Shown here: in pieces, positions 1 through 37,297 of the stretch
Layout of the letters: each line of letters starts with the position of its first letter
Position numbering within the stretch: the first letter of the stretch is position 1
Origin: a virus
Strand: one strand, 5' to 3'
Length of the DNA stretch: 64,000 bases
Virus record (IMG/VR): IMGVR_UViG_3300008107_000029
Location: 32,833 to 96,832 of that record
The notes under the pieces: model-generated
Told to the model about the DNA's origin: nothing
Database searches by the model: none
The model's input: only the letters and a program-made list of their open reading frames with translations
Translations under genes and position numbers: made by a program

Positions 1-1024
1 CCCTTGCGTGTGGTTTGGATTCGTTTAAACTTGCTATAGATACTGTATCATATTCGGAGTCTTCTTGCAAATCTGACAGGCTGTGAGATCCAGAATAAGA
101 ACACCCTGAGCCTAGGCCTAATCTAAATTTATTTAGACTATCTTCAACTGCCCCCTTGTATGGTACCTTAGTAGATATACCCTCAGAACCTGCAGAATAG
201 CCTCTCCAGGCCTCCTGAGCCTCACTTGAAGCCATCCCACGGAAAGACTTAAAGCCATCAATAATGTCTCCTGGAGCCTCGTCGTGTCCTGCCAAAGCAG
301 ATCCTAGCATAACTGCAGATGCCCCTGCTGCAAAAGACTTAACCATATCTCCTGAGTTCCTAATTCCACCATCTGCAATGATTCCCAGATTAGATACTGA
401 TTCATCATTAAAGCAATCTAAGATGGACTGTAGGGTTGGCCTTCCGTGCCCAGTTACAATCCTAGTAGTGCAGGCTGCACCACCACCAATTCCAACACGA
501 ACAGAGTCTGCACCCATCTGCAATAGCATCTTGTATCCTTCTGCTGTTGAAACATTGCCAGCCATAATGTGTGTAGCAGGATTTAAAACTGCTCTCAATT
601 TCTTTACGGCTTCTAGTGCATAATCACTGTGACCATTTGCTGTATCAACACATATTACTTTTGCTCCAGCCTCTTCTAATTCTAAGGCGTGTGACTCATA
701 GTATCCAGTAGCAGCAACTGCTGCACCAACTACAAATCCCATTTCGGAAACAAGTTTAACTTGTCTTACCTGCTCTACCTCATCCATATACCTATGGATT
801 ATACCTAGACCACCAAGCCTAGACATATGAGAAGCCATCTCCCATTCAGTAACAGTGTCCATAGGTGCAGAGATAATTGGAGTAGACAATGTGATCTGTG
901 CTTCTGGCCTAACTCCAATAGTCATAGATAGGTCTACGTCTGATCTACTTTTAACACCTGACTGTTGTGGCACCAAAAGAATATCATCAAAGCATAGTGC
1001 CTTAACGTTGTTATACTTTCTCAT
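1..1024 (-). CDS. guaB: IMP dehydrogenase / GMP reductase family protein (GuaB-like, no CBS domains); 3' end runs off the window
   Basis: Not in ORF track. Translated by hand from ATG at 1024: MRKYNNVKALCFDDILLVPQ...IISAPMDTVTE...DTANGHS...MAGNV...VRVGIGGGAACTTRIVTG...IIADGGIRNSGDMVK...FRGMAS...EG. No stop before base 1. Confidence 0.9.
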   Translation of the reverse strand, partial: MRKYNNVKALCFDDILLVPQQSGVKSRSDVDLSMTIGVRPEAQITLSTPIISAPMDTVTEWEMASHMSRLGGLGIIHRYMDEVEQVRQVKLVSEMGFVVGAAVAATGYYESHALELEEAGAKVICVDTANGHSDYALEAVKKLRAVLNPATHIMAGNVSTAEGYKMLLQMGADSVRVGIGGGAACTTRIVTGHGRPTLQSILDCFNDESVSNLGIIADGGIRNSGDMVKSFAAGASAVMLGSALAGHDEAPGDIIDGFKSFRGMASSEAQEAWRGYSAGSEGISTKVPYKGAVEDSLNKFRLGLGSGCSYSGSHSLSDLQEDSEYDTVSIASLNESKPHAR

Positions 1025-1476: not shown

Positions 1477-1761
1477 TTATCCTATCTTCTCGATTATCTT
1501 ATTCCATGTCTCTGAAGTTTTATGGGCATTCTTCATATTATCTGGCTTTCCATCTGCCAAATAAACTCCACCCCAAACTCCCCAGGACATAGTGTTAGTT
1601 CCATATTCAAAGCACTGCTTTATAACAGGGCAGTTAATACAAATCTTATCTGTAGAGGCAGCAACTTCTTTGTCTTCCTCATATTTATCAAAGAATTCAT
1701 TTACTTCAAGGTCCTGACAAATTCCTCGAACTTGCCAATTAGTCTCTTCGAATAGATTCAT
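1477..1761 (-). CDS. whiB: WhiB family Fe-S transcription factor
   Basis: W...C-x-C..C PV..QC and GVWGG motif. Start placed at ATG 1761 (MNLFEETNW) rather than 1836. Confidence 0.92.
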   Translation of the reverse strand: MNLFEETNWQVRGICQDLEVNEFFDKYEEDKEVAASTDKICINCPVIKQCFEYGTNTMSWGVWGGVYLADGKPDNMKNAHKTSETWNKIIEKIG

Positions 1762-1954
1762 TAGGAAGGTTCCATCCGTCCTTTGTGGGGACATATCTAT
1801 TCGCAAAGCCCCATACGCCCTTGTAACGCATTCCATCTTTGCTAAACTCTGCAGCCTTGCTTCTCTTAAACTTTACAATTGTCCAGCCGTCCCAATGTAG
1901 GTCCTTAGACTTTGCAACGATTGCTTCTGCTTGTTCTAACTTGTTAATCTTCAT
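1739..1954 (-). CDS. hypothetical protein
   Basis: ORF track 1739..1972. ATG at 1954 has AAGGAG upstream and is the likelier start. Confidence 0.7.
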   Translation of the reverse strand: MKINKLEQAEAIVAKSKDLHWDGWTIVKFKRSKAAEFSKDGMRYKGVWGFANRYVPTKDGWNLPNESIRRD

Positions 1955-1968
1955 TTCTCTCCTTGTGA

Positions 1969-2331
1969 TCATTTATAGATCCTTGTAGGTATTTCCATAT
2001 TTTCAGCCTTACTCATAATAGGGTCAAAATACGGATTGTACTCTTTAGCACTAAAATATAATACCATTTCTACAGGACCTTTGTCAAGTTCATCTAGGAA
2101 GAGTTGTTTGGGCACACGATGATACTTTATTTTGATTTTCTTTTGCTTAAAGTAAGCCGAAGTCCTATTGCAATACTCTGCAGTAAAATCATTTAACATG
2201 TGAGGGCCACCACACCAGATGTCGATCCTGTTGTCCTCAGAATTCTTATACGTTTCAATGGCAACTGTCAGCCCACGCATAAAGTCTGCGTAACTGTTAA
2301 AGTCGTCGTGTGCGTATGCATAAATAATCAT
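1969..2331 (-). CDS. hypothetical protein, weak resemblance to SLOG/YspA-like fold
   Basis: 120-aa ORF; N-terminal strand then F.SY..F helix and GG motif; leaderless promoter directly upstream. Confidence 0.6.
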   Translation of the reverse strand: MIIYAYAHDDFNSYADFMRGLTVAIETYKNSEDNRIDIWCGGPHMLNDFTAEYCNRTSAYFKQKKIKIKYHRVPKQLFLDELDKGPVEMVLYFSAKEYNPYFDPIMSKAENMEIPTRIYK

Positions 2332-2345: not shown

Positions 2346-3047
2346 CTATCTATATTCTTTTCTATTCCACCATAGATTTTTATATCTATTGACGAAAGAT
2401 GTGTTGTGCTTATTAAGCATTGTTTGTTGATAACCTCTGCTTTCATCTACTGAGTACTCAGCAGTAAACGAATCTCTTTTAAATGGCACAACGTGACATA
2501 TTGGAGTTCCGTAAGGGATTACACCAGCGAAATCTTTTCTGATGTGAAAAGGAAAGTTAATGACTAAAGGAAATCTGTCAGTGTCTACAAACCCTGGAAT
2601 GATCTTAAATGGAAGATCTTCACGATGTGGTGGTTGAAAAAACATTGTACTGTAACCATCTGGGGTAGTAATTCTCCAAGGATTAATAAACTTTAAAACA
2701 GTATCTTCATAACCATACGGCACTGGATATCCAATTACCTGATCGTCTGTATGTCCCTCTACTGCTTTAGTGTCGTAATCCATAGACCAGGAAACATCTA
2801 CGTTACCATGCCCATCTCTTTTAACCAAGATGTCCGTCCATGTTTTTATTACATAGCCAGTAGACAATGAATCCAAAATAGGAACACATTTTTTCATAGT
2901 AGCGTTCATTCCATCAAACTTACCACCGATGTAAGTATCCATAGACTTATACCAATCTGGAAGGTTCTTATTGGCAGGCTCTGGTTTTGGTGCAGCCTCA
3001 GACAACAGTGGATCAATTAAAGAAAATTGTATTTTTTTACTTGACAT
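2346..3047 (-). CDS. conserved beta-rich phage protein (DUF6065-like / dUTPase-like fold, uncertain); paralog of 24456..25211
   Basis: P.PA...LPDWYK, KKCVPILD...GY, PW.ITTP.GYS..F..P, G.VDTD, GTP...V.PFKR motifs shared with 24456..25211. Confidence 0.65.
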   Translation of the reverse strand: MSSKKIQFSLIDPLLSEAAPKPEPANKNLPDWYKSMDTYIGGKFDGMNATMKKCVPILDSLSTGYVIKTWTDILVKRDGHGNVDVSWSMDYDTKAVEGHTDDQVIGYPVPYGYEDTVLKFINPWRITTPDGYSTMFFQPPHREDLPFKIIPGFVDTDRFPLVINFPFHIRKDFAGVIPYGTPICHVVPFKRDSFTAEYSVDESRGYQQTMLNKHNTSFVNRYKNLWWNRKEYR

Positions 3048-4308
3048 ACCTTTTATTCCAATGCAAAGAGTTTTCTTGTGTAGAAAATGAGTACATTGAA
3101 ATCATCGAGTTAATTAAATTAACAAGACTATTTTTTGACCTATGTGTCTTTGTCTTAAAGACTAGACCTTCCCAATCTATACCAAAGAAAGTATTAAAAT
3201 CAAAGATTAATTTTTCATCTTTTGAATCAATAAAAGAATCTACAATCTCTTTAATTTCTTTATAAGATTCGGTATCTTTAAAGTTTGAATCTTCATATAC
3301 CTTTGTTTCTTCCCAGTCAATGCCCGTCCTTGTAAGGAACAGCCTTGATCCATAGTGCTTATAGATGGGTGTCCATCTCATACTGTAGAAAGAAAAACCT
3401 TCTTTAAAAAACTTTAAAGTAGTTTTAAAGTTGTCTTCATGAATTGATAAAGTCTTTTCCGATGCTTTATTAATTCTATTAATATCTTTGGCTTTGCCAA
3501 ACAAAAAGTATAAAGATAAAGCATTTGTTTTTGCTATAACTTCATTCTCTTTAAACTTAAGTCCATAGTACAATGGGAATCCATTATCAAATAAAAAGTC
3601 TTTGTGCATTTGTAATTCATCATAGAATTCATCTAACTCTTCATCTTTTTGGATTCCTTCTGTGCTGTCTAGAAATCTAACCATAGTAGAGTTTTCCATA
3701 ATGCCAGAACTTGGATACCTTGCACCGTCATACTCTTCTCTTTGTAGAGTAGTCATTTCTTTATGATTCATGTAAAACTTAAAACCTTCTGTTTCGTTGT
3801 CATGTGGCAGATAGGCTCTTGGAAATGCAGTAAGCAAAACCTTTGAATCAAACTCAGCAAGTGACTGATATTGTTTAAGTAGAACAATGTCCCAGTCTGG
3901 ATCAAAACGCATATCAGATCCTATAGTCATGAAGTATGTTTCATTATTGTATTTAGAGTCTGTAAACATTCTTAGTTTGCCATAGGTATCATAGATATAG
4001 TTTTTTTCTTTGCCGTCCAAAGCAACATAAGAAGTAGGAACGTATGAAATTCTTAAATTTGGATGATTGATTGGTGGCTCTAGACCTATATAGTTTTGAA
4101 ATCCATGACCAACTATTCCTATAGTACAACTAACAAATAGGTTTCCTGGATCTCTTGCATTGTTATATAAACTTTCAATAGTGTCATAAACACCTTCGTT
4201 TTCTCCAATAATGCTTACAAAGATAGAAGAAGTTTTTCTTTCGTCAACTAAGTATTCAGGGTCAAAGTTTGTTCCCTCAAATGAGTTTGTTCTGGTTGCT
4301 ATGTTCAT
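3037..4308 (-). CDS. divergent GT60 (Skp1-hydroxyproline GlcNAc-transferase, Gnt1-like) glycosyltransferase
   Basis: SIFVSII...TIESLYNNA.DP.NLFV; YFMTIGSDMRFDPDWD (family pattern Y.LQIDSHMRF...WD); C-terminal ED...F.EGF.FY.....IY.HY. Confidence 0.7.
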   Translation of the reverse strand: MNIATRTNSFEGTNFDPEYLVDERKTSSIFVSIIGENEGVYDTIESLYNNARDPGNLFVSCTIGIVGHGFQNYIGLEPPINHPNLRISYVPTSYVALDGKEKNYIYDTYGKLRMFTDSKYNNETYFMTIGSDMRFDPDWDIVLLKQYQSLAEFDSKVLLTAFPRAYLPHDNETEGFKFYMNHKEMTTLQREEYDGARYPSSGIMENSTMVRFLDSTEGIQKDEELDEFYDELQMHKDFLFDNGFPLYYGLKFKENEVIAKTNALSLYFLFGKAKDINRINKASEKTLSIHEDNFKTTLKFFKEGFSFYSMRWTPIYKHYGSRLFLTRTGIDWEETKVYEDSNFKDTESYKEIKEIVDSFIDSKDEKLIFDFNTFFGIDWEGLVFKTKTHRSKNSLVNLINSMISMYSFSTQENSLHWNKRYVK

Positions 4309-4829
4309 TATCTAGTCTTTTCTTTGTAGTTAAAATACCAATGGTCTGGCTCTGCATAATGTAAGAAGAGCATTAATACTTTATTTCCTGGTGTAAAAGG
4401 TGGTCTGCCATGAAATTGATCTTCACCGTACATTGCAATAGCCTGATTGGCTTTAAGAACATAGTCTTTACCTTCAATAGTAACAGGCCAAGGTTCTTTT
4501 GAATACAGGCAAACGTCGTAACTATAGGTGCATGCATTGCTATCATAGTGAAATGGCAAAGACGATTTGTCGTTTTCGTATAGAGCAACGGTAGCATAAG
4601 TTGGTAGCAATGTCTCACTCCCAAAATCTTTTCTTGCTTTGTCAATGTTAGTTATGAGTATATTGGTTATATAAGGAGAATTATGAAACCATCTATTCAT
4701 ATTATCATTTGACCAAAGCCACTCTTGGTTAAAATTAAATGTATTAATCTTGTTTATAATAGAAGTATAATCTGATTGCTTGAAAAAATTATCAACAATC
4801 CAAGGATCTTTAACCTTACTGTTGACCAC
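4308..4829 (-). CDS. 2OG-Fe(II) oxygenase
   Basis: LPFHYD (HxD), CTYS, YGEDQFHGR (distal His), LFLHY. Confidence 0.85.
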   Translation of the reverse strand: MVNSKVKDPWIVDNFFKQSDYTSIINKINTFNFNQEWLWSNDNMNRWFHNSPYITNILITNIDKARKDFGSETLLPTYATVALYENDKSSLPFHYDSNACTYSYDVCLYSKEPWPVTIEGKDYVLKANQAIAMYGEDQFHGRPPFTPGNKVLMLFLHYAEPDHWYFNYKEKTR

Positions 4830-5481
4830 TGAACCTGTTTCCTTCCAATAAAAATTCAGTTCCAGGCTCTCCTAACCACGTTACAACAGCATATTTAGTT
4901 CCAGAAATTACTGGCTTTGCTTGATGTAGGTATGCATAGTCTGAAGGGAACAAAGCAATAGAAGGTGTTTGTGGATGAATATTTACATCGTGATGTACAA
5001 AATAGGTAGAACCGCCTTCATACTCACTTGGATTTAAATACATTACTGCTGAAAGAGTTCTGTATTCATGTCCTGGTCCTCTATCGCAATGTGCTTTGTA
5101 TTGTTTTCCTGGACCGTACTTTAAAAGTTGTAGGCCTTCGTCAAATGCAATATGTAAATCAAATGAGTCACAATAGTCTCTAACGCTTGCTCCAAGTCTG
5201 TCTCTAATTAATTCTGTTGCCGTTTGCATATCTTTTGCAGTCTTAGAAACAATGTCACAAGAGTCAATTGCCATCACTTGGTTTGACCTTACAGTACCAC
5301 CGTCGTGTCCCTGACCTACTTTTGCACCCTGAAAAGATACTTGACTTGTTACGTCTTGATCTATTGCTTCGTATGCTGCAATAATTTCTGCAGCCTGCTC
5401 TTTAGTAAAGATGTCATTGTATATTGCAATGGCTCCACCAAAAATATCCTTGGTTACTTCCTTTGGCATATCTTTAATCAT
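4816..5481 (-). CDS. prolyl 4-hydroxylase-like 2OG-Fe(II) oxygenase
   Basis: VRSN; QLLKYGPGKQYKAHCD; RTLSAVMYLN; EGG.TYF; HQAKPVISGTKYAVVTW. Confidence 0.92.
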   Translation of the reverse strand: MIKDMPKEVTKDIFGGAIAIYNDIFTKEQAAEIIAAYEAIDQDVTSQVSFQGAKVGQGHDGGTVRSNQVMAIDSCDIVSKTAKDMQTATELIRDRLGASVRDYCDSFDLHIAFDEGLQLLKYGPGKQYKAHCDRGPGHEYRTLSAVMYLNPSEYEGGSTYFVHHDVNIHPQTPSIALFPSDYAYLHQAKPVISGTKYAVVTWLGEPGTEFLLEGNRFSGQQ

Positions 5482-5490
5482 TTTATTCCC

Positions 5491-6102
5491 TTATCTCATA
5501 TAGGATAGGGAGATTGTCCCTATGCCTTTTTCTTTCTCGTACAACTCTGAATCAATATCTTTACCACCGTGAAAAGCAGTAAAGAGACTTAATCTATAAT
5601 GACTCAGGACTGGGTTGACTGAGTGCGTATACATAAAGTCTGCTGGTAATAATAATATTGTACCACCTTTAGGTTTGTATATCAAGTCTTCAAACTGATC
5701 AAATTTAATACTTCCACCCTCGTAATCGTCATTAAGAAAAACATAGCATGCTATCTTTCTTGTAAATGGAAGATAATCTATTTTATCATTGATAGAAGAA
5801 GATGCATTTAGGTTAATATTTTGAATTCCAGATCCTGGATTCATTACAAAAAATTGATACTTTTCTTGCCATTGTAGGGTATGAATAGACTCTTTGTATA
5901 AATCACAATAAGAAACCAAGCACTCTAGCACAGTCTTTTGAAGTTTTTCTAATTTGTAATTAATTTTTTTATCGGAGGATATGATTCTATTAGACTTTAA
6001 TTCAAGTGGAGCCAGTCCATCTTCACCAATAATTAAATCTTCAACGGGAAATTCTACAATTCCTGGGGCAAGAATGTTATACTTCAAATCTTGGTGCCTC
6101 AA
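5491..6102 (-). CDS. P4H-like 2OG-Fe(II) oxygenase fold protein lacking HxD
   Basis: RKIACYVFLNDDYEGG.I.F and YTHSVNPV...R present; HxD position reads NINLN. Confidence 0.75.
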   Translation of the reverse strand: MRHQDLKYNILAPGIVEFPVEDLIIGEDGLAPLELKSNRIISSDKKINYKLEKLQKTVLECLVSYCDLYKESIHTLQWQEKYQFFVMNPGSGIQNINLNASSSINDKIDYLPFTRKIACYVFLNDDYEGGSIKFDQFEDLIYKPKGGTILLLPADFMYTHSVNPVLSHYRLSLFTAFHGGKDIDSELYEKEKGIGTISLSYMR

Positions 6103-6586
6103 TTTCTGTGTCTTTGTTTTCTACAACAGTCTCTTTATAAACAATTAAAGATTTGTTATACAAGAATCCATTGCTATCATAAAGTTTAATGTAATATTCT
6201 CCAAAGGTTTTTGGAGTAAAACGAACTACAAACCTAATGTCTCCTTCTTTTTCTAAAGGATACTCCTCTACTATTTGAATATTTTTTGGATCATCCATAT
6301 CTACTAAATGAAGTTCAATTCTTAAATCTTCCATTTTTTCATAAATTAACCATTCATTTAAATAATAAAGTTCAATTTCTTCTCCTAAAGGAAATGTTTC
6401 TTTTTCTAAAAACACAGTGTTTGTTTCTGGAATGTATACAATTTGAGGCTCTGATGGGTCTTGAAGATATAAATCAATTAAATCAGATTTACCTATAACA
6501 ACTTGTGAGCATTCTGATTGCTGTGCTTTAAATAGAATATCCTCGTCAAGGGTTCGTCCTTCTGGAACGTAATAGATTAATTCCAT
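6077..6586 (-). CDS. hypothetical acidic protein
   Basis: 169-aa ORF overlapping the oxygenase start. Confidence 0.7.
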   Translation of the reverse strand: MELIYYVPEGRTLDEDILFKAQQSECSQVVIGKSDLIDLYLQDPSEPQIVYIPETNTVFLEKETFPLGEEIELYYLNEWLIYEKMEDLRIELHLVDMDDPKNIQIVEEYPLEKEGDIRFVVRFTPKTFGEYYIKLYDSNGFLYNKSLIVYKETVVENKDTEIEAPRFEV

Positions 6587-6588
6587 TA

Positions 6589-7659
6589 TTACACCAATAG
6601 TTCTTTGATAGTTCCTGCTTCATGCCCAGTAACATCAAGTGCTACGGATGAAGGTCTTACAAATTGAGAGACTAGGAGGATTACTCCACCACCTGTTTGG
6701 TATGCCATTGCAGATGAGTTGTAGTATCCAGTTGCATAAACTGTTCCAAATCCAACCATCTTTCTTGCAGAAACTACAACAACTCCACCACCTGGTTGAG
6801 TTCCGTTTCCTGCACCACCACGTAATGGCAGTGGGACTGTTAAAGATCCACCAAAAGCATATCCATTAATAGCATTCATTGGTAAGTTATAGTACTCAGG
6901 ACCACCGTTAGCAACCACTGGAAGGCTACTAGCATAGCCAAGACCATCTCCTCCTAGACTATTTGATACACTAACCTCAGACCCTCCTAGAAGTGATCCA
7001 ACACCACTAAAACCATTCTTAAGTCCAATACTTGTTGTGGCTTGGTTGGCAATTGCCGAACTAAAGGTAAGGATATTTCTTACAAACACCCTATACCCAT
7101 TAGTGTTTACGTGTACGCCTGGGGCAATAGTAAGATTACTATAATACATATCTCTAGTAAGATCTGTGTTTGCTGAGATTGTAACTGTTCCGTCTTTTCC
7201 AGATCCGTAAATTGAATCTGGAATGATATTAAAGTCGTATGTTGCTTGTGTCAGCCTGGTGATTGTTCTAATCTGATTGCCCTTTGCAGCATTAAGGCCG
7301 TCAAAGTAATAGTAGTTTACTGGTGTAGATGAGTTTGGCTGTATAGTTATTTTTCTAGCAGTTGCTGCGTTAAATCCAGAAGCATATGCTGCATAGTTTG
7401 CAACCAAAGTATTGTTTAAGAAATACTTAATTCCATATGCAGAACTCAAGGCACTTCCAGTGCTGTCTGCTACTGTTCCAATACATATTGGATGGCTTGC
7501 GTTGCTAGCATTGTCTTGGTTAATTGTATATGTATCTCCAACTGCCAATGTTAATACTGGGGCTGTAACTGAATTTAAAACATAGTTTGTTGAATAAGTA
7601 GTTGTCTGTGTAAAAGCAGATGATTCTTGACTAACTGATCCAAATTGCGTAATAGGCAT
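6589..7659 (-). CDS. glycine-rich virion fibre/adhesin-like protein
   Basis: IYGSGKDG.VTI...LTRDMYY.NLTI domain paralogous to 7659..9332; GGGVVVV polyglycine motifs. Confidence 0.7.
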   Translation of the reverse strand: MPITQFGSVSQESSAFTQTTTYSTNYVLNSVTAPVLTLAVGDTYTINQDNASNASHPICIGTVADSTGSALSSAYGIKYFLNNTLVANYAAYASGFNAATARKITIQPNSSTPVNYYYFDGLNAAKGNQIRTITRLTQATYDFNIIPDSIYGSGKDGTVTISANTDLTRDMYYSNLTIAPGVHVNTNGYRVFVRNILTFSSAIANQATTSIGLKNGFSGVGSLLGGSEVSVSNSLGGDGLGYASSLPVVANGGPEYYNLPMNAINGYAFGGSLTVPLPLRGGAGNGTQPGGGVVVVSARKMVGFGTVYATGYYNSSAMAYQTGGGVILLVSQFVRPSSVALDVTGHEAGTIKELLV

Positions 7660-9332
7660 TATTTAACATCCTCCTCATTCTTAATAATTATAACACTTCC
7701 TGCTGTAGCGTATCCACCATCACCTGTACCTGCAGCAGATCTAACTTCAATAGTAGAAGGAATATTGTCTTCAGTTACTAGTAAAACAACTCCACCACCA
7801 CCTGCATATCCAATAGTTCCTGGAGTTCCTGGAAGTCCAGCAGTAATAGATCCTCCTGCACCACCTGCTCCTCCTGCTCCACCAGGACCACCCTCAGCAT
7901 ATACTGAAGGAATAAATGATGTTGACTCTGGCTGATATGCTACAAAGAAAAATGAATATTGAGTTGGTCCTTGTCCTACTTGACGAGACTCTGTGTTGCT
8001 TCCAAAGTTTGTATAAGATGCAGCAACTTGTCTTTGTGTAGTAAATGGAAATGGGTTAAAAGATCCAGGGTTTCCTGGGGTTGGGGAGTTTCTTCCAGTT
8101 TGTACATACGACCATGGCTGTCCAGGCTGAAAAAATGAAAATGGGTTGCCTGGTTGAAAGAATGAAAATGGGTTTCCAGGCTGAAAGAATCCACCACCTC
8201 TTGGAAATCTAACAAATCTTCCTGGGTTTGTTCCAAAAACTGTTCTTCCAGGGTTTGTTCCAGAAACAGTTCTTCCTGGAAAGACTCCAAAGATTCCTCT
8301 AGACCAAGCGTTGCCTGGAGTTGGAGCGTTTACATAAGAATATCCTGGTGTAACTGCTGGAGTTACTTGAGTATAGGTATAGTTAAATGTAACAGAAAAT
8401 GGTTGTTGATAAAATTGTGTAACTACTGTTGGTGCATTGTATCCATATGCCAATACATTGTAGTTATATCCTGCTGCATTTACTTGAGTTCTTGAGAATT
8501 GAAAAAAGTCTGGGGCCTTTGCTCCTGTATTTCCTGGTGCACCTGGATTACCAACACTTCCTGCGGTTCCTTCACCTGGTAAAGGTAATGGTCCTGGAGA
8601 CTTTCCGTCAGCACGAATAATTCCAGATCCTATAATTTTTCTTGCAGAAATAACAACTACTCCACCACCTGGACCTCCGTCTCCTCCAAGTCCTGCAGCA
8701 CCTCCAAGCCCTCCAGTTCCTAAGTTTCCTGGAGCACCTGTGTTTCCTGGGGATCCTTTTCCACCTGGGGCACCCACTGTGTTTGTTCTAGATGTAGGAC
8801 TTAAATTTCCTGGTGCACCTGGAGAACCTGCAGGGGCAGGCTGTGCAACTCCGTCTGCACCTTTGTTACCTGGTGTACCTGGTTTTCCACCAGATCCACC
8901 TTGAAGTGTTCTAAGTCTATTTAATGCTGCATCAAATTTATATGCAACAATTGCTTGTGAAAAATTATAAAACTCTGCTTCTCCAAAGAAGTTCTCACCG
9001 TTATTAAGACCACCAGATCCACCAAGAGTATCAGATGCTTTGACTCCCGAAGCCCCACCACCAAAGATAGTTCCTGCAGTTACAGTGTCAGCGAGTCTTC
9101 CGATAACAGAAGTGGCGTCTGCCATTGTTAATGTGTCTTTAACAAAAACTCTAAATCCGTTTGTATCTAATTGTACGTTTGCTAAAATTGTAAGATTGTT
9201 ATAGTACATGTCTCTATTCAAAGATATGTTTGAAATAACAGTGACATCGCCATCTGTTCCTGGTCCATAAATCTCAAGGCCACCCTTACGGGAAGCCAAG
9301 ACAACAGGCTCTGGAACTCTTACATCAGACAT
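7659..9332 (-). CDS. Gly/Pro-rich (polyglycine/collagen-like) fibre protein with aromatic repeat insert
   Basis: G-X-P/G-X-X runs, GGGVVVI motifs, ~200-aa F/Y/N/P/Q/T-rich insert. Confidence 0.75.
   Translation of the reverse strand: MSDVRVPEPVVLASRKGGLEIYGPGTDGDVTVISNISLNRDMYYNNLTILANVQLDTNGFRVFVKDTLTMADATSVIGRLADTVTAGTIFGGGASGVKASDTLGGSGGLNNGENFFGEAEFYNFSQAIVAYKFDAALNRLRTLQGGSGGKPGTPGNKGADGVAQPAPAGSPGAPGNLSPTSRTNTVGAPGGKGSPGNTGAPGNLGTGGLGGAAGLGGDGGPGGGVVVISARKIIGSGIIRADGKSPGPLPLPGEGTAGSVGNPGAPGNTGAKAPDFFQFSRTQVNAAGYNYNVLAYGYNAPTVVTQFYQQPFSVTFNYTYTQVTPAVTPGYSYVNAPTPGNAWSRGIFGVFPGRTVSGTNPGRTVFGTNPGRFVRFPRGGGFFQPGNPFSFFQPGNPFSFFQPGQPWSYVQTGRNSPTPGNPGSFNPFPFTTQRQVAASYTNFGSNTESRQVGQGPTQYSFFFVAYQPESTSFIPSVYAEGGPGGAGGAGGAGGSITAGLPGTPGTIGYAGGGGVVLLVTEDNIPSTIEVRSAAGTGDGGYATAGSVIIIKNEEDVK
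8109..8279 (-). repeat. two facing sets of 27-nt (9-aa) tandem repeats
   Basis: PGRTVSGTN-PGRTVFGTN-PGRFVRF, then PRGGG, then FFQPGNPFS-FFQPGNPFS-FFQPGQPWS. Confidence 0.9.
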
Positions 9333-9334
9333 TT

Positions 9335-9670
9335 TTAGGCTATCTCCACTCCACTAATATGTAGGCTGATTGCGTCTGCAACGTTTGCTAGACACTGTAT
9401 TGTAGCACCTGTTGGAACTACGATACTTCCATCTACTAGTTGAGTAGTATTTGCAGGCACTAGGATTTCTCCAAAGGCCTTGTTTGTTGCTAATGCAGTT
9501 CCCCCACTTGGCACAATGTGAATCGTTGCTCTAGCGTCTATACCACTGGTATTCGCTATAAGTATTTGCTTCACAAGTGTAGTTGTGCTTGCTGGAACTG
9601 TATACAATGTTGCAGCCGTAGTAGTTAATCGTGTTACTGCTGCTAGTTGTTTTGGTGTATATGCTGGCAT
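9335..9670 (-). CDS. small virion structural protein (beta-sandwich fibre-associated domain)
   Basis: LYTVPA..T.LVKQILIAN...ISGVEI pattern; related to N-termini of the next two genes. Confidence 0.65.
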   Translation of the reverse strand: MPAYTPKQLAAVTRLTTTAATLYTVPASTTTLVKQILIANTSGIDARATIHIVPSGGTALATNKAFGEILVPANTTQLVDGSIVVPTGATIQCLANVADAISLHISGVEIA

Positions 9671-11218: not shown

Positions 11219-14200
11219 TTACGCCTGCGATTCTGTCCATGAGACACGAGCAGAGATTTTAAGAGGTATTGCTTCAGTTACTGAGGCAGGCTCTACGACA
11301 ACTGCTGCTACTGTAAGAACATCTGGTCCGTCTGGGAACACACCGTCTCCACCAAGGATTGAGTTACCTAAAGTTGCAAGTTCTGCAAGAGATAATGTAG
11401 TATCTTGTGAGTTTACGGTTCCAGTACCTGCTGCACGGAAGTTGTAGAGAACAATTCCACCAGTGTACAAATCTCCCTTAGAGTGTTTAATCAACTGGCT
11501 GAGTGAAGGCTTGTTCACGAATGTCCAGTTAGTGTTATCTAAAGTTGAGTTAAGAATCAAGTAGATTTCGCAGTCGTAGTTTGTAAGAATACCAACAGAG
11601 TTAAGAATTGTCTGCATTCTATTTACTACTTCTTTTGAACCTAAGTTACCAGTGTTAGCATTATCTACTGAAGGAGCAAGACGTGCTGATACTAGAGGGA
11701 TTACTGATGGAACAATGTCTGTTCCTGATCCAATATTGTATGTTTGTGATGTTGGATATGTAAAGGTTGCTCCATCGTTAGTATAAATAATTACTTGAGC
11801 ACCTGAACCAGTTGAGCCACCAGTGTACCAACGTGCATTGTTAGTAAGAGTTGCAGTTCTTGGGAATGTTCCAGAGCCTGGTGCTACTGTTGAAGCAATA
11901 AACTGTGTAGATGATCCTAGGTAAGGTGTAATATAAACAACTGAACCATTAGAGATTGTTGATCCAGTATAAGATCTACCACCTGATCCACCATAGAAGA
12001 ATGTTGATGGTACAGATGAATCTGCTTCCCATCTAACTCTATGGACAGTTCCTGCAGTCATTCCGTGTCCACTTGCTACGGTAAAGACAGTAAAGTTATT
12101 TGTTGCATCAAATAATTGCTGTTGAGAAGTTACGGTTCTAAATGTGGCACCATCTGTTGCAGAAGGAGCCTGGTCAACATAAACCCAACCAGTGTTATTG
12201 TATCCACGAACTGGCACTCCAATTGTTTTTGTTCCTACTGGAAGTTTTTCATTAAGTGCAGTTGAGTTAGCCACTGCTGTATTATTTTTAATTGCAGCAA
12301 CTACTGCGTTGGTGTATGAATCAAATGTAATTCTGTAAGCAGCAACAGTTGTTGCTGTGTCAGGGTCAGTGATGGTATATGACTTAGTTGTTTCAATTTG
12401 ACCAGGAGCAGTCTTTTGAGTTGAGTTGTTTGTAAACTGAATTGAATCTCCTGCTGCTGTAAACAAATAAGCCTTGTCATCTTGGAACTCTCCATCCATA
12501 ATAATAGATGTACCCCAGTGAGAAAGTGATGGTACGTATGAAGGAATTCCTGTTGAAGTAATTTCATAACGGGCTGGAAGGTTTCCTGCTCTCATGTATG
12601 CTTCAGTAAATATATTGTTGTGGATAAATTCATGGAAGTACTTTACGTGCCCCTTTTGATCTTTAAATCCAAATCTAACTTTACCTGCACCATACCAAGA
12701 GTAGTCAATGTAAGCCATTTGAATCTTTGTAAGATCTAGGTTAAATCCTGATGGGCCAGTTCCATCTGCTGGATCAAGGTTCCAGTTTGCTTGTTCTACT
12801 TTAGTATCTACAACCTTTGAAATGATAACTCCACTCTTAGAGATACCACGATATGCTGGTTGGATATACATAATGTCATTTGAGTCAACCTTTACAACCT
12901 TGTAAGTTTGTCCCTTAATAACAACGCTTTGTCCCTTTGCTACCTGAGAAGAGAATGAAGTGCTAGAACCAACAATTCTTGTAGAGTTAAACGCTACTGT
13001 TGCAGTTCCAGACATCTGTTGTGTAGATGATCGTCTTACACAGTACAACTTGCTACCGTCAAACTCAAAGAAGATTCCATTTTGATCATCAAACAATCCT
13101 GATCTTAGTACACAGTTTACCCAAGAAACTGGATTAAATTGTGGGAATCCTCCTGGACGATCTGTTTGTGGAGTTCCTAAAAGTGTAATGGTGAATGTTC
13201 TTTCATCAATAATTTGATTAATTTCAAAGTTTCCATTCCAGTAATTAGGACCAAGATCGCCAATTCCATTTACAGCATCTACAATTCTAACTGTAACAAC
13301 ATCTGTACAGCGATGTGGGTTTCTTGTTGTAATTGTTGCAGTAGTTCCTACTCTTGTATATGTATCAATCTGAGTTGGAGCGTTAAAGTTAATTGCCTTA
13401 GATACCTGAATACCCTTACCTGACTGGTAACGGAAGTACTTACGGGTCTGACGAATCATAGATGCGTCTGGGTTAGTAGAAGGAGTAAGTTCAACACCAC
13501 CGTCGTAAGGTCTGTGAACTGCGAATCCATCACCCTTAACATACAATGATGTAGAGGTTGCATATGATAAATCGGTTCTAGCAACACCAGAGGCAGTTGA
13601 GATTGGAGTTTGTGCTTCATCTGATCCTGTAACTGGAATAGTATCTTCTACAGTCAAGGCAGTTGCTGATCTAATTCCAGTAATCTTGGAAGCAAACACT
13701 GTTCCTGGAAGTACTGGAGAGATTGTCATGTTACCAGTTCCAAGGCCAGTAATATCAATTCTGTTTGAATCTGCATTAGCATCTGCTGGATTTGGATAGA
13801 ATGCTAAAGTTGAAGTTGTAAGTGCTCTTACATAGTAAATTCTTGATGCTGAAAGCCCAGTTGGCAAAGTAGTACTAGATGAAACTCTTACAGCAAGACC
13901 AGTTGTATATGTATGTGTATCTTGAGTTGTAACAATGTTTGTTGTTAAGTTAATACCACTGGACTGAGTTACAAATTCAAGATTGCTTAATCTAGTATCT
14001 GGTACATATACTTTAAATACATCTCCAATCTTATAAAGATTTGGGAAGTTTGTTCCAAGTCCATTGATTGTTTTTGTTCCTGGAACTAGGCTAACAGTTC
14101 CGCTTGCAGGAAATTCTGCAGCAACGTTAGAACTTGTAATTGAGTGAGTTACACCAGATCCAAATGATGTTAAAACAATTTCTCTTCCAATTTCAGCATC

Positions 14201-30084: not shown

Positions 30085-30133
30085 CCTTTTCTCCTAGATG
30101 CCATAAGAATGACATACAAGTTAATTATACAAT

Positions 30134-30172
30134 AAATAGGATAGTGAGTTCAGAAAACCCACTACCCTATTT
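30134..30172 (-). terminator. long hairpin, probable terminator after the M23 gene
   Basis: AATAGGGTAGTGGGTT-TTCTG-AACTCACTATCCTATT then TATTG. Confidence 0.7.
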
Positions 30173-30182
30173 TGTTAATTGA

Positions 30183-30581
30183 TTAAGATGCAAGAATTGC
30201 TGCAGGATCAATATCCTGTCCAGCACTCCATTTAATATTTGATCTCATTTCAAAGTGAAGATGAGGACCAGAAGAATTTCCTGTATTCCCAGATTTTCCT
30301 ATGACCTGTCCTTTCTTTACTGTAGCACCAGGCTTGACATCTGCTGCAGATAGATGAGCATAAATTACCCAACCACCTGAAACTTTTTGTACTAATTGTG
30401 TACCATAACTGGCTCCCCAGTTAGCATTTTCAATCTTTCCATCTGCTACTGCAACAATTGGTGTTCCTCCTGGAACTGCAAAATCCACACCTGTGTGGTA
30501 GCCTTTGCTCCACATCTTACCAAGTTTCTTGTAAGGTGTAGTAATTTTGCCATTTGTAATTGGTAGACCCAAAGTGAGCAC
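30183..30581 (-). CDS. M23 family peptidase
   Basis: HTGVDF, YAHL, GNSSGPHLHFE. Confidence 0.92.
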   Translation of the reverse strand: MLTLGLPITNGKITTPYKKLGKMWSKGYHTGVDFAVPGGTPIVAVADGKIENANWGASYGTQLVQKVSGGWVIYAHLSAADVKPGATVKKGQVIGKSGNTGNSSGPHLHFEMRSNIKWSAGQDIDPAAILAS

Positions 30582-30601
30582 CCCCTTTCATTAACATCCT
30601 A

Positions 30602-36976: not shown

Positions 36977-37297
36977 TCATCCCAGGACGCCGTGCATTTT
37001 TGGACGATCTTTATTGATATTTGCTTTTTCTTCTAAGATGTCATGTAATGAAAGACTAACTACATTAGCATCCTTTAGTCCTTGATAAAGATCTAAAACT
37101 CTAATCAGGATGTCTGCTAATTCTTCTACTACTTGCTGCTCACCTTTTTCTTTTCTAAGTGCCTCTAGCACTTCAGTTACTTCTGAATGGACCATCGCTA
37201 ACTGCTTTGCAAAGAAAACAAAATCTTGTTCATAGTTCCAAAATCCTTTTTCTACAGCAGTTGAGTGTAGGTCTGATGCAAGTTTATCTAAGTTCAT
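36977..37297 (-). CDS. MazG-like NTP pyrophosphohydrolase
   Basis: HSEVTEVLEA.R, EELADILIR.LD, K..IN..R...HG. Confidence 0.85.
   Translation of the reverse strand: MNLDKLASDLHSTAVEKGFWNYEQDFVFFAKQLAMVHSEVTEVLEALRKEKGEQQVVEELADILIRVLDLYQGLKDANVVSLSLHDILEEKANINKDRPKMHGVLG

What the first reader, a model, noticed from the sequence alone, without database searches (positions are those of the whole stretch)
2346..9332. Putative virion-fibre hydroxylation and glycosylation operon (P4H-like oxygenases + GT60) directly behind Gly/Pro-rich fibre genes
Seen: an unbroken run of abutting or overlapping genes comprising a Gly/Pro-rich fibre (7659..9332), a paralogous fibre (6589..7659), an acidic protein, three 2OG-Fe(II) oxygenase-fold genes, a GT60-like transferase and a conserved beta-rich protein. 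Established: in Dictyostelium the prolyl 4-hydroxylase PhyA and GT60 enzyme Gnt1 act in sequence (Pro to Hyp, then GlcNAc-Hyp on Skp1), and P4Hs act on X-Pro-Gly. Inference: the phage carries its own post-translational pathway to hydroxylate, and possibly glycosylate, the many x-P-G sites (NPG, TPG, QPG, APG, SPG) of its fibre. This could serve stability, receptor binding or shielding. I know of no characterised phage Hyp-glycosylation system.
Basis: partly seen in the sequence, partly recalled or inferred. Interest (0 to 1): 0.85.

Follow-up and report, generated by a model that had tools for sequence, protein, structure and literature searches.

The report
Phage fibre hydroxylase and sugar-transferase cassette
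An uncultured phage places a collagen-type proline hydroxylase, sugar-transferase genes and dUTPase-like proteins directly behind a collagen-like tail-fibre gene, so it probably modifies its own fibre chemically, although no chemistry has been shown.

Summary
The genes are real, abut or overlap on the minus strand, and form a module conserved in many uncultured phage contigs.

**Gene by gene**
- FIB1 (7659-9332) has Gly-X-Y tracts. It holds 26 Pro-Gly dipeptides against 9.4 expected. Across the family, Pro sits in the Y position 238 times and in X 10 times.
- OX_B (4816-5481) is a complete collagen-type prolyl 4-hydroxylase homologue.
- OX_A (5491-6102) is a paralogue with a broken iron site.
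- OX_C (4308-4829) could not be shown to be an oxygenase.
- The "GT60" gene (3037-4308) has a GT-A fold most like polypeptide GalNAc-transferases, but its whole clade lacks the DxH metal motif.
- A canonical PF11397 transferase that keeps DxH lies just outside the window, and every relative that has the degenerate copy also has one.
- The "beta-rich protein" (2346-3047) is a dUTPase-fold, DUF6065-like protein.

**Linkage**
- Hydroxylase and dUTPase-fold genes follow the fibre pair in nearly all related loci.
- They also recur with the transferase in other gene orders.

**Verdict**
- Fibre hydroxylation is the best reading, at about 0.5.
- Hydroxyproline-linked glycosylation is possible but weaker.
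- Follow-ups in this scan reached similar readings of like modules in eight other genomes.
- I class it as a new variant of a known kind.

The parts
9335..9670 (-). Small conserved protein (111 aa) directly upstream of the fibre gene; function unknown
   Evidence: It matches phrog_1276 (E 2.8e-7). A homologue lies directly upstream of the fibre pair in most related loci.
7659..9332 (-). FIB1, a fibre-type protein. It has a conserved N-domain (1-144), a collagen-like Gly-X-Y tract with a beta segment (145-274), a hypervariable aromatic/Asn/Pro-rich insert (275-478) and a Gly-rich C-terminal part (479-557). It is the candidate substrate.
   Evidence: - It has 26 Pro-Gly against 9.4 expected.
- The Gly-X-Y glycines are invariant in 22 homologues.
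- Family-wide, Pro is in Y 238 times and in X 10 times.
- The family profile's best PDB matches are collagens, though these are composition-biased.
- There is no Pfam Collagen hit for this copy, but the distant relative in L046 scores 53 bits.
6589..7659 (-). FIB2, a partial paralogue of FIB1. It has its own N-terminal part plus the shared FIB domain, and no Gly-X-Y tract.
   Evidence: - BLASTP to FIB1 gives 41% over 139 aa, E 2e-18.
- Residues 14-130 match phrog_708, 'baseplate wedge subunit'.
- Residues 32-162 are 35% identical to cyanophage ACG-2014d genes annotated baseplate wedge subunit.
6077..6586 (-). Acidic 169-aa protein of unknown function, possibly an assembly factor
   Evidence: It is 21.9% Asp+Glu and has no family match. 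Homologues lie between the fibre pair and the hydroxylase in related loci.
5491..6102 (-). OX_A, a P4H paralogue with a degenerate iron site (pseudo-hydroxylase)
   Evidence: - PF13640 scores 27.9 bits.
- hhalign to the OX_B family gives 99.4% probability, E 9e-22, with N-x-N aligned to H-x-D.
- No conserved triad residues were found in 17 homologues.
4816..5481 (-). OX_B, a collagen-type prolyl 4-hydroxylase homologue with a complete 2OG/Fe(II) site
   Evidence: - PF13640 scores 57.9 bits.
- H131, D133 and H186 are invariant, and K196 (+10) is 90% or more conserved, in 33 homologues.
- Family-profile matches in the PDB: B. anthracis P4H 7.6e-15, PBCV-1 P4H 9.5e-11, Chlamydomonas P4H 1e-9, human C-P4H alpha-2 3.5e-7.
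4308..4829 (-). OX_C, a 173-aa protein with an invariant H-x-D...H pattern; its fold is not established
   Evidence: - It matches phrog_2954 (E 5.7e-12, labelled 'ferrochelatase').
- R66, Y84, H94, D96, G135 and H140 are invariant in 32 homologues.
- None of 65 homologues has a Pfam domain.
- hhalign to OX_B gives only 4% probability, and there is no PDB match.
3037..4308 (-). GT1, a PF11397 GT-A protein whose clade has lost the DxH and C-terminal His metal ligands
   Evidence: - PF11397 scores 42.2 bits.
- The AF2 model has pLDDT 83.6.
- The top Foldseek PDB matches are polypeptide GalNAc-transferases, E 1.6e-7.
- G130-S131-D132 sits where canonical members have D-x-H.
2346..3047 (-). P8a, a dUTPase-fold, DUF6065-like protein
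   Evidence: - It matches phrog_7084 (E 1.4e-50).
- The nearest Atlas clusters are DUF6065.
- The AF2 model has pLDDT 88.3.
- The top 22 VIA-wide matches are all from the dUTPase/dCTP deaminase fold superfamily, including non-enzymatic herpesvirus derivatives, at Z 10.7-6.2. A baculovirus protein follows at Z 5.4 and everything else is at Z 3.4 or below.
- In a family-profile search of the PDB, all six weak hits are dUTPases, aligned over motifs III-IV.

Best explanation
This is a fibre-tailoring cassette at the end of a late, tail-fibre gene block of an uncultured phage of about 100-110 kb, probably a phage of Actinobacteria.

Proposed mechanism:
- FIB1, and perhaps FIB2, is a receptor-binding fibre or baseplate protein. 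It has collagen-like Gly-X-Pro tracts and a hypervariable tip insert full of X-Pro-Gly(-Asn) units.
- OX_B is an active collagen-type prolyl 4-hydroxylase that converts some of these Y-position prolines to hydroxyproline in the infected cell. Its bacterial host would not be expected to supply this step.
- OX_A is a catalytically dead paralogue that may still bind substrate or partner OX_B.
- OX_C may be a second small oxygenase.
- PF11397 GT-A transferases then add sugar to the fibre, on hydroxyproline or on Ser/Thr. The canonical GT2, just outside the window, is the likely catalyst. GT1, which lacks DxH, is either a metal-independent enzyme or a non-catalytic partner.
- The dUTPase-fold P8 proteins are obligate companions with an unknown, possibly uridine-nucleotide-related, role.

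Shown: the gene identities, motifs, folds, synteny and proline placement.
Inferred: every catalytic step and the identity of the substrate.
For: 1. Tight operon structure.

2. OX_B has all the sequence hallmarks of a collagen-type P4H.

3. Proline placement:
- FIB1 has 26 Pro-Gly against 9.4 expected, and Gly-Pro is depleted.
- In Gly-X-Y runs of the FIB family, Pro is in Y 238 times against 10 in X. In distant FIB relatives it is 181 against 18.
- Other collagen-like ORFs in the same loci show the opposite pattern, X 770 against Y 142.
- X-Pro-Gly is the motif that collagen P4Hs hydroxylate (established knowledge).

4. Linkage picked by the fibre:
- Of 46 distinct loci with at least 2 kb downstream, 44 have OX_B downstream, 37 of them within 1.5 kb.
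- Of 39 loci with at least 6 kb downstream, 37 have P8.

5. Linkage picked by OX_B:
- The loci at 43% identity or more all carry the module. The four that lack one or both fibre ORFs start too close to OX_A to show them.
- More distant loci show FIB-GT-P8-P8-OXB or P8-GT-P8-OXB, so the parts stay linked despite rearrangement.

6. Transferases:
- Every contig with GT1 also has a canonical PF11397 GT2 after the P8 paralogues.
- The window's own genome has P8b-GT2 at G000:C1:30113-31989.

7. The nearest solved folds to GT1 are polypeptide O-glycosyltransferases. GT60 and GT27 share polypeptide O-glycosylation (PMC7185993).

8. Relatives swap in other tailoring genes at the same place: an FkbM methyltransferase, a Trp halogenase and a GT4.
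Against: - There is no biochemical or proteomic evidence.
- No single X-Pro-Gly site is conserved across all FIB1 types.
- Many distant fibres that still have OX_B show no x-Pro-Gly enrichment, with z near 0.
- The closest GT-less group has Gly-X-Y runs of only 4.
- The FIB1 fold is unknown: the Atlas model has pLDDT 0.51. The Gly-rich parts could be polyglycine-II or beta-solenoid rather than triple helix, with Pro-Gly as turn motifs.
- GT1 lacks its metal ligands.
- The GT1-fibre correlation is confined to a single clade.
- The region downstream of tail-fibre genes is a usual site for accessory genes.
- P8 homologues in haloarchaeal viruses lie beside thymidylate synthase and DNA polymerase, which hints at nucleotide chemistry.
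- The literature reads phage 2OG oxygenases as metabolic or DNA-repair genes (PMC3037559) or as secondary-metabolite enzymes (PMC2938197).
Confidence: 0.5

Rival explanations
1. The enzymes are real protein-modifying enzymes, but their target is not FIB1/FIB2. The target could be another virion protein, such as the 2273-aa or 985-aa proteins upstream. It could also be a host protein, as bacterial PF13640 enzymes hydroxylate EF-Tu or ribosomal proteins.
For: - The OX_B family profile also matches Pseudomonas PPHD (4iw3, 4.2e-6) and PKHD-type hydroxylases.
- Several distant FIB proteins have few X-Pro-Gly sites yet keep OX_B.
- OX_B/P8 tandem arrays occur without a FIB gene in the fetched flank (L150, L156, L157).
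Against: - Collagen-type P4Hs outrank the other hydroxylases by 4-9 orders of magnitude.
- In the fibre-picked loci, OX_B starts within 1.5 kb of the fibre pair in 37 of 46 and lies downstream in 44.
- The Y-position proline bias is specific to FIB proteins.
Confidence: 0.2
2. The cassette makes or modifies a small molecule, a nucleotide sugar or the phage DNA. The oxygenases, the dUTPase-fold proteins and the transferases, together with halogenase or methyltransferase in relatives, would form a metabolite or base-modification pathway that merely sits next to the fibre genes.
For: - P8 is a remote dUTPase homologue that keeps part of motif III.
- P8 lies next to thymidylate synthase in haloviruses.
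- A Trp halogenase sits between OX_B and P8 in L046.
- Iyer et al. 2010 read cyanophage dioxygenase/halogenase arrays as secondary metabolism (PMC2938197).
- An IMPDH/GMP-reductase family gene lies between the two halves of the cassette in this genome.
Against: - OX_B is not TET/JBP-like or AlkB-like. Its best matches are peptidyl-prolyl hydroxylases.
- GT1's nearest folds are polypeptide transferases.
- No scaffold-building enzyme (NRPS, PKS or ATP-grasp) was seen in the loci annotated.
- The module tracks the fibre genes, not the replication genes, in this lineage.
Confidence: 0.15
3. Most of the 'enzymes' are non-catalytic. They would be degenerate enzyme folds reused as fibre assembly chaperones or minor structural parts, and the Gly-rich fibre would be a polyglycine-II or beta-solenoid adhesin rather than a collagen.
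For: - OX_A and GT1 have lost their catalytic metal ligands.
- COSMC is a precedent for a GT-A protein without DxD acting as a chaperone (PMC7185993).
- Herpesvirus dUTPase-fold proteins without enzyme activity appear among the P8 fold matches.
- The gp38 adhesin and Mtd_N appear as weak Atlas leads for FIB1.
Against: OX_B and GT2 keep every catalytic residue tested in all relatives. That conservation is hard to explain without catalysis.
Confidence: 0.1

Closest known systems
Skp1 hydroxyproline glycosylation pathway of Dictyostelium/Toxoplasma (PhyA prolyl 4-hydroxylase, then the GT60 enzyme Gnt1)
   Same: A PF13640 prolyl-hydroxylase homologue and PF11397 transferases occur in one functional unit. 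The DxH motif is present in GT2.
   Different: - The candidate substrate is a repetitive fibre protein with many X-Pro-Gly sites, not a single Pro in Skp1.
- OX_B is closer to collagen-type P4Hs than to HIF/PhyA-type enzymes: EGLN1 scores only 7e-4.
- GT1 lacks DxH.
- dUTPase-fold partners are present.
- Hyp linkage of any sugar is untested.
Chlorovirus PBCV-1 prolyl 4-hydroxylase (PDB 5c5t) and Bacillus anthracis P4H (PDB 5hv0)
   Same: - These are the closest solved relatives of OX_B (9.5e-11 and 7.6e-15).
- The H-x-D...H...K(+10) site is the same.
- Both are microbial or viral enzymes thought to act on proline-rich or collagen-like repeats of their own genome (own knowledge).
   Different: Here the enzyme is in a tailed phage, sits directly behind its candidate substrate, and is accompanied by a dead paralogue, transferases and dUTPase-fold proteins.
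Hydroxylase plus collagen-like or tail-collar operons predicted in bacteria, and the Syn9 cyanophage tandem dioxygenase/halogenase cluster (Iyer, Abhiman, de Souza, Aravind 2010, PMC2938197)
   Same: - The logic is the same: co-encoded collagen-like or tail-collar proteins are proposed as substrates of neighbouring 2OG dioxygenases.
- Distant relatives of this module carry a Trp halogenase, as in Syn9.
   Different: - Those bacterial operons use beta-hydroxylase/PhyH-type enzymes with sulfotransferases.
- The phage arrays were read as secondary metabolism, not as fibre tailoring.
- No PF11397 transferase or dUTPase-fold partner was described there.
Mimivirus collagen lysyl hydroxylase/glycosyltransferase (L230) and mycobacteriophage virion O-glycosylation
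   Same: In both, a virus-encoded enzyme modifies the virus's own structural proteins (own knowledge, not tested here).
   Different: The enzyme families, the residues modified (Lys; Ser/Thr) and the virus groups all differ.
COSMC / T-synthase (GT31 pseudo-glycosyltransferase chaperone with its active paralogue)
   Same: A GT-A paralogue without its metal motif is always found together with a canonical paralogue (PMC7185993).
   Different: The GT family differs. A physical or functional GT1-GT2 interaction is untested. GT1 keeps clade-specific invariant polar residues (R164, H182, Q189, R190, D194), so it may be active without metal, as GT14 is.

Membership tests
Collagen-type prolyl 4-hydroxylase (PF13640, 2OG-Fe(II) oxygenase): OX_B, 4816-5481 | Pfam model matched above its gathering score | tested here: met
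   57.9 bits against a cut-off of 27
Collagen-type prolyl 4-hydroxylase (PF13640, 2OG-Fe(II) oxygenase): OX_B, 4816-5481 | H-x-D...H iron triad and a basic residue at +10 that binds 2-oxoglutarate | tested here: met
   H131, D133 and H186 are invariant and K196 is 90% or more conserved in 33 homologues. The alignment to B. anthracis P4H is.
Collagen-type prolyl 4-hydroxylase (PF13640, 2OG-Fe(II) oxygenase): OX_B, 4816-5481 | Closest characterised relatives are peptidyl-prolyl 4-hydroxylases | tested here: met
   PDB profile search: B. anthracis, PBCV-1, Chlamydomonas and human C-P4H rank first.
Collagen-type prolyl 4-hydroxylase (PF13640, 2OG-Fe(II) oxygenase): OX_B, 4816-5481 | Hydroxylates Pro in X-Pro-Gly peptides | not testable with these tools
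   This needs an enzyme assay or mass spectrometry.
2OG-Fe(II) oxygenase: OX_A, 5491-6102 | Iron-binding H-x-D...H triad | tested here: not met
   OX_A is homologous to OX_B (hhalign 99.4%), but N-x-N replaces H-x-D. No triad residue is conserved in 17 homologues.
2OG-Fe(II) oxygenase: OX_C, 4308-4829 | Detectable homology or fold similarity to the double-stranded beta-helix oxygenases | tested here: inconclusive
   - There is no Pfam match in this protein or in 65 homologues.
- hhalign to OX_B gives 4%, and there is no PDB match.
- An invariant H94-x-D96...H140 exists.
GT60 / PF11397 GlcNAc transferase: GT1, 3037-4308 | Pfam model matched above its gathering score | tested here: met
   42.2 bits against a cut-off of 21, but only profile positions 116-199 of 352. 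The family profile reaches hundreds of PF11397-type domains over residues 25-175.
GT60 / PF11397 GlcNAc transferase: GT1, 3037-4308 | GT-A fold | tested here: met
   The AF2 model has pLDDT 83.6 and pTM 0.86. Foldseek top matches are GalNAc-T2, T. gondii GalNAc-T3, GlfT2, K4CP and Mnn9.
GT60 / PF11397 GlcNAc transferase: GT1, 3037-4308 | DxH metal-binding motif (the GT27/GT60 variant of DxD) and the C-terminal His | tested here: not met
   - GT1 has G-S-D at the DxH position, and the rest of its clade has S/G-S/P-x, apart from one member (P0095) that keeps the Asp but not the His.
- K/Y/Q/I/H sits at the C-terminal His position.
- Of the 26 other PF11397 genes in these loci, 25 keep both motifs in full; one reads D-G-H and so keeps the Asp and the C-terminal His.
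GT60 / PF11397 GlcNAc transferase: GT2, outside the window at G000:C1:30113-31276 | Pfam match, DxH and C-terminal His | tested here: met
   81.4 bits. The 'QIDSH' and 'YHRY' motifs are present.
GT60 / PF11397 GlcNAc transferase: GT1 and GT2 | Transfers GlcNAc from UDP-GlcNAc to hydroxyproline (Gnt1) or Thr (T. cruzi enzymes) of a polypeptide | not testable with these tools
   This needs an enzyme assay.
Collagen triple-helix repeat protein (PF01391): FIB1 | Long uninterrupted Gly-X-Y repeats matched by the Pfam model | tested here: inconclusive
   - This copy has no Pfam hit at E 0.01 or below.
- Its longest run has 13 glycines, and there are several shorter runs.
- The repeat glycines are invariant in 22 homologues.
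- The distant relative in L046 scores 53 bits on PF01391.
- PDB profile hits to collagens are composition-biased.
Trimeric dUTPase / dCTP deaminase superfamily: P8, 2346-3047 | dUTPase beta-barrel fold | tested here: met
   VIA-wide ranks 1-22 are all of this fold superfamily, Z 10.7-6.2; a baculovirus protein follows at Z 5.4 and everything else is at Z 3.4 or below. Foldseek agrees.
Trimeric dUTPase / dCTP deaminase superfamily: P8, 2346-3047 | The five dUTPase sequence motifs, including the motif IV Arg and the motif V arm | tested here: inconclusive
   The weak profile alignment covers motifs III-IV only. A 'G-v-V-d-T-D-f/Y' stretch aligns to 'GVVDRDY', and the motif IV Arg is replaced by a conserved Pro. 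Motifs I, II and V were not mapped.

The most novel reading that the evidence does not exclude
The phage runs a complete collagen-style maturation line for its own receptor-binding fibre:
- OX_B makes 4-hydroxyproline at Y-position prolines.
- A pair of PF11397 transferases puts sugar on those hydroxyprolines, with catalytic GT2 working alongside GT1 as an acceptor-binding or chaperone-like pseudo-enzyme.
- The dUTPase-fold DUF6065 proteins serve the UDP-sugar chemistry.

This would be the first hydroxyproline-glycosylated phage virion protein. It would also give a function to the many 'orphan' 2OG oxygenases of aquatic phages.
Probability: 0.2. Interest if true: 0.85.

Novelty: new variant of a known kind. 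Interest (0 to 1): 0.65.

Why it matters
Aquatic phages carry many 2OG-Fe(II) oxygenase genes whose function has been open since the first cyanophage genomes. They have been read as nitrogen or 2OG metabolism, DNA repair or secondary metabolism (PMC3037559, PMC2938197).

This locus offers a concrete, testable alternative: the enzymes tailor the phage's own fibre. It names a substrate (FIB1, with X-Pro-Gly in Gly-X-Y tracts and in the hypervariable tip). It also names a catalyst (OX_B) and a second step (GT2, with or without GT1).

If this is right, three things follow:
- Hydroxyproline-stabilised, possibly glycosylated, collagen-like fibres exist in bacterial viruses.
- Host range and virion stability could depend on phage-encoded post-translational chemistry.
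- A new partner family, the dUTPase-fold DUF6065 proteins, would be tied to protein modification.

Tried and rejected
- **Isolated phages.** Megablast of the region, and tblastn of GT1 and FIB1, against 50,697 isolated phage records found nothing. The lineage is known only from metagenomes.
Neighbourhoods were obtained with the search for related loci instead.
- **P8 as a fourth oxygenase or cupin.** An H-x-D seen by eye in the window copy prompted this idea. It is rejected: no His is conserved in 68 homologues and the fold is dUTPase-like.
- **OX_C as a demonstrable oxygenase.** Pfam on 12 members, precomputed Pfam on 65 homologues, two PDB profile searches and two hhalign runs gave nothing significant.
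- **TET/JBP or AlkB-type DNA hydroxylase reading of OX_B.** This is not supported. Only PF13640 matched in Pfam and P4Hs rank first among solved structures.
- **One universally conserved X-Pro-Gly target site across all FIB1 types.** None was found, and the alignment of the variable parts is unreliable.
- **Promoter and terminator scans.** Counts were close to the shuffle expectation, so they say nothing about operon limits.
- **FIB1 fold.** The Atlas model is poor (pLDDT 0.51).
- **Literature.** Searches for DUF6065/PF19541 found no paper. Searches combining phage, prolyl hydroxylase, collagen-like and hydroxyproline found no report of a hydroxylated phage fibre.

Full report
**Setting**

The window is bases 32833-96832 of a 96.8-kb IMG/VR virus record estimated 85% complete. 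Nearly all long ORFs are on the minus strand.
- The phage has a DnaE-type polymerase, a DnaB-like helicase and a UvsX-like recombinase.
- Its large terminase is 62% identical to those of 128-134-kb Streptomyces phages such as Gilson and Sushi23.
- With a WhiB gene at 1477-1836, this points to an actinobacterial host despite about 38% G+C.
- No isolated phage resembles the region at the DNA level, or by tblastn of FIB1 or GT1.

**The observation**

From 9670 down to 2346, nine minus-strand ORFs abut or overlap, with junctions from -26 to +14 nt.

FIB1 (7659-9332) has four parts:
- a conserved N-domain;
- Gly-X-Y tracts broken by a beta segment (GGGVVVISARK...RADG);
- a 200-residue insert that is hypervariable among homologues and rich in Phe/Tyr/Asn/Pro/Thr;
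- a Gly-rich C-terminal part.

It has 26 Pro-Gly dipeptides against 9.4 +/- 2.7 expected, and none of 2000 shuffles reaches 26. Gly-Pro is depleted.

FIB2 shares only the FIB domain and two short beta segments with FIB1. Its N-terminal part resembles cyanophage proteins annotated as baseplate wedge subunits.

**The enzymes**

OX_B (4816-5481) is a full collagen-type P4H homologue.
- PF13640 scores 57.9 bits.
- H131, D133 and H186 are invariant, and K196 at +10 is 90% or more conserved, together with other positions shared with B. anthracis P4H.
- The family profile ranks, in order, B. anthracis P4H, PBCV-1 P4H, Chlamydomonas P4H and human C-P4H alpha-2. These come ahead of PPHD, PKHD and PHD2.

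OX_A (5491-6102) is clearly a paralogue (hhalign 99.4%). N-x-N aligns to H-x-D, and no triad residue is conserved across 17 homologues. It is a pseudo-hydroxylase.

OX_C (4308-4829) has an invariant H-x-D...H. It could not be tied to any oxygenase family by Pfam, PDB or profile-profile comparison. Its PHROG family is the cyanophage 'ferrochelatase-domain hypothetical' (PMC3037559).

GT1 (3037-4308) passes the PF11397 threshold on part of the model.
- It folds confidently as GT-A.
- Its best solved matches are polypeptide GalNAc-transferases. GT27 is the family closest to GT60 (PMC7185993).
- Aligned with canonical PF11397 proteins, the whole GT1 clade (about 14 representatives among 1.8 billion) has S/G-S/P-x where the others have D-(S/A)-H. 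One member keeps the Asp but not the His, and the clade lacks the later His.

P8 (2346-3047), the 'beta-rich protein', is DUF6065-like and adopts the dUTPase fold.
- The 22 best of 48,161 chains are all from the dUTPase/dCTP deaminase fold superfamily (Z 10.7-6.2). A baculovirus protein follows at Z 5.4 and everything else is at Z 3.4 or below.
- The only, weak, sequence hits of the family profile in the PDB are six dUTPases, aligned over motifs III-IV.

The same genome encodes a second P8 paralogue overlapping the start of a second PF11397 gene, GT2. They lie at G000:C1:31252-31989 and 30113-31276, about 0.8-2.7 kb left of the window.
- GT2 scores 81.4 bits and keeps 'QIDSH' and the later His.
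- Between the two halves lie small ORFs, WhiB and an IMPDH/GMP-reductase family gene.
- In seven related contigs the order is uninterrupted: FIB1-FIB2-(acidic)-OX_A-OX_B-(OX_C)-GT1-P8-P8-P8-GT2.
- GT1 therefore never occurs without a canonical paralogue.

**Linkage tests**

Loci picked by the fibre (78 loci):
- Of 46 distinct loci with at least 2 kb downstream, 44 have OX_B downstream of the fibre pair, 37 of them within 1.5 kb.
- Of 39 loci with at least 6 kb downstream, 37 have P8.

Loci picked by OX_B (80 of 567 matching stretches):
- Those at 43% identity or more all carry FIB-FIB-...-OX_A-OX_B-(OX_C)-P8. The four that lack one or both fibre ORFs start too close to OX_A to show them.
- More distant loci show OX_B/P8 tandem arrays, and the orders P8-GT-P8-OX_B or FIB-GT-P8-P8-OX_B.
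- Of 42 FIB+P8 loci with enough flank, 16 also have a PF11397 gene.

Linkage that survives rearrangement argues for a shared function of OX_B, P8 and the transferase, usually next to the fibre.

Relatives carry other tailoring genes at the same place:
- an FkbM methyltransferase and a PUD-domain protein in L012;
- a Trp halogenase and a GT4 transferase in L046, where the FIB1 homologue itself scores on Pfam Collagen.

In the cultured cyanophage metaG-MbCM1, a 2OG oxygenase also lies among tail-fibre genes.

**Substrate signature**

In Gly-X-Y runs, Pro placement differs sharply between protein sets:

| Protein set | Pro in Y | Pro in X |
|---|---|---|
| Close FIB family | 238 | 10 |
| Distant FIB proteins | 181 | 18 |
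| Other collagen-like ORFs in the same loci | 142 | 770 |

The other collagen-like ORFs mostly have Thr in Y, the usual prokaryotic pattern. Y-position Pro, that is X-Pro-Gly, is what collagen P4Hs hydroxylate, and Hyp there stabilises the triple helix (established knowledge; PMC8233474). The hypervariable inserts of different groups also repeat X-Pro-Gly(-Asn) units.

Caveats:
- Several distant fibres have no x-Pro-Gly excess.
- No single site is conserved.
- The fibre fold is unknown.

**Interpretation**

The best-supported reading is a fibre-tailoring cassette in which OX_B hydroxylates X-Pro-Gly prolines of FIB1 (about 0.5).
- Glycosylation by GT2, with GT1 as a metal-independent enzyme or a COSMC-like partner (PMC7185993), is plausible (about 0.35).
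- Linkage of the sugar to hydroxyproline specifically is a further step (about 0.2).
- The role of the dUTPase-fold proteins is unexplained. Their homologues in haloarchaeal viruses lie beside thymidylate synthase, which keeps a nucleotide-related rival alive.

**Prior knowledge**
- Viral P4H is known from PBCV-1, and collagen modification is known from mimivirus.
- Virion glycosylation is known from mycobacteriophages (own knowledge).
- Hydroxylase/collagen-like pairing was predicted for bacteria by Iyer et al. 2010, who read the phage arrays as secondary metabolism.
- I found no report of a hydroxylated or Hyp-glycosylated phage fibre.

**Earlier notes from this scan**

Twenty notes in at least 18 genomes share these search terms. 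The eight follow-ups shown, each on another genome, reach similar unproven conclusions. They are AI notes, not independent evidence.

This locus adds four things:
- the collagen-like Y-proline signature;
- the degenerate/canonical transferase pair;
- the dead P4H paralogue;
- sequence-level support for the dUTPase kinship.

Noticed in passing
G000:C1:30113-31989, which is 0.8-2.7 kb left of the window start (locus L091:1165-3041, minus strand): A second DUF6065-like gene (245 aa) overlaps the start of a second, canonical PF11397 glycosyltransferase (387 aa, 81.4 bits, DSH motif kept). The two belong to the same cassette but lie outside the window.
   Followed up: yes
window 1477-1836 (-): This is a WhiB-family transcription factor gene (PF02467, E 8e-11). 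The terminase at 30602-32395 is 62% identical to those of Streptomyces phages. Together they suggest an actinobacterial host despite about 38% G+C.
   Followed up: partly
window 2-1024 (-), running off the window start: An IMPDH/GMP-reductase family gene (PF00478, E 5.5e-97) is inserted between the two halves of the cassette. It is a candidate auxiliary nucleotide-metabolism gene.
   Followed up: no
window 2058-2087 (-): This is the best sigma-70-like site in the first 12 kb (11 of 12 matches, with an extended -10 TG). It lies just after P8 and ahead of the small-ORF/WhiB group. It may mark the end of the fibre-cassette transcript.
   Followed up: no
window 7880-8520 (FIB1 residues about 275-478): This insert is hypervariable among 22 homologues, nearly free of charge, and carries 9-residue FFQPGNPFS-type repeats and X-Pro-Gly-Asn units. 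Inserts of different composition sit at the same place in relatives: Tyr/Asn-rich in L012 and His-rich in L046.
   Followed up: partly
L046:14961-16505 and 19478-20536; L012:15451-16164 and 12105-13028: Distant relatives of the module carry other genes in place of GT1. L046 has a tryptophan halogenase (342.7 bits) and a GT4 transferase. L012 has an FkbM methyltransferase and a protein with a pullulanase-associated domain.
   Followed up: partly
L090 (Halovirus HSTV-2, gene 40) and 48 other records of haloarchaeal viruses: P8/DUF6065 homologues (32-36% identical) occur in tailed viruses of haloarchaea. In HSTV-2, the one record examined, the gene lies next to thymidylate synthase and DNA polymerase and is not among fibre genes.
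   Followed up: partly
window 11219-18040 (-) and 18065-21022 (-): Two very large proteins (2273 and 985 aa) lie upstream of the fibre pair and have almost no family matches. They are presumably fibre or tail components.
   Followed up: no
window 37294-40548 (-): This is a complete DnaE-type DNA polymerase III alpha subunit (PHP, NTPase, finger and HhH domains). It lies between the terminase/fibre block and a second block of tail-like genes at 46-62 kb.
   Followed up: no
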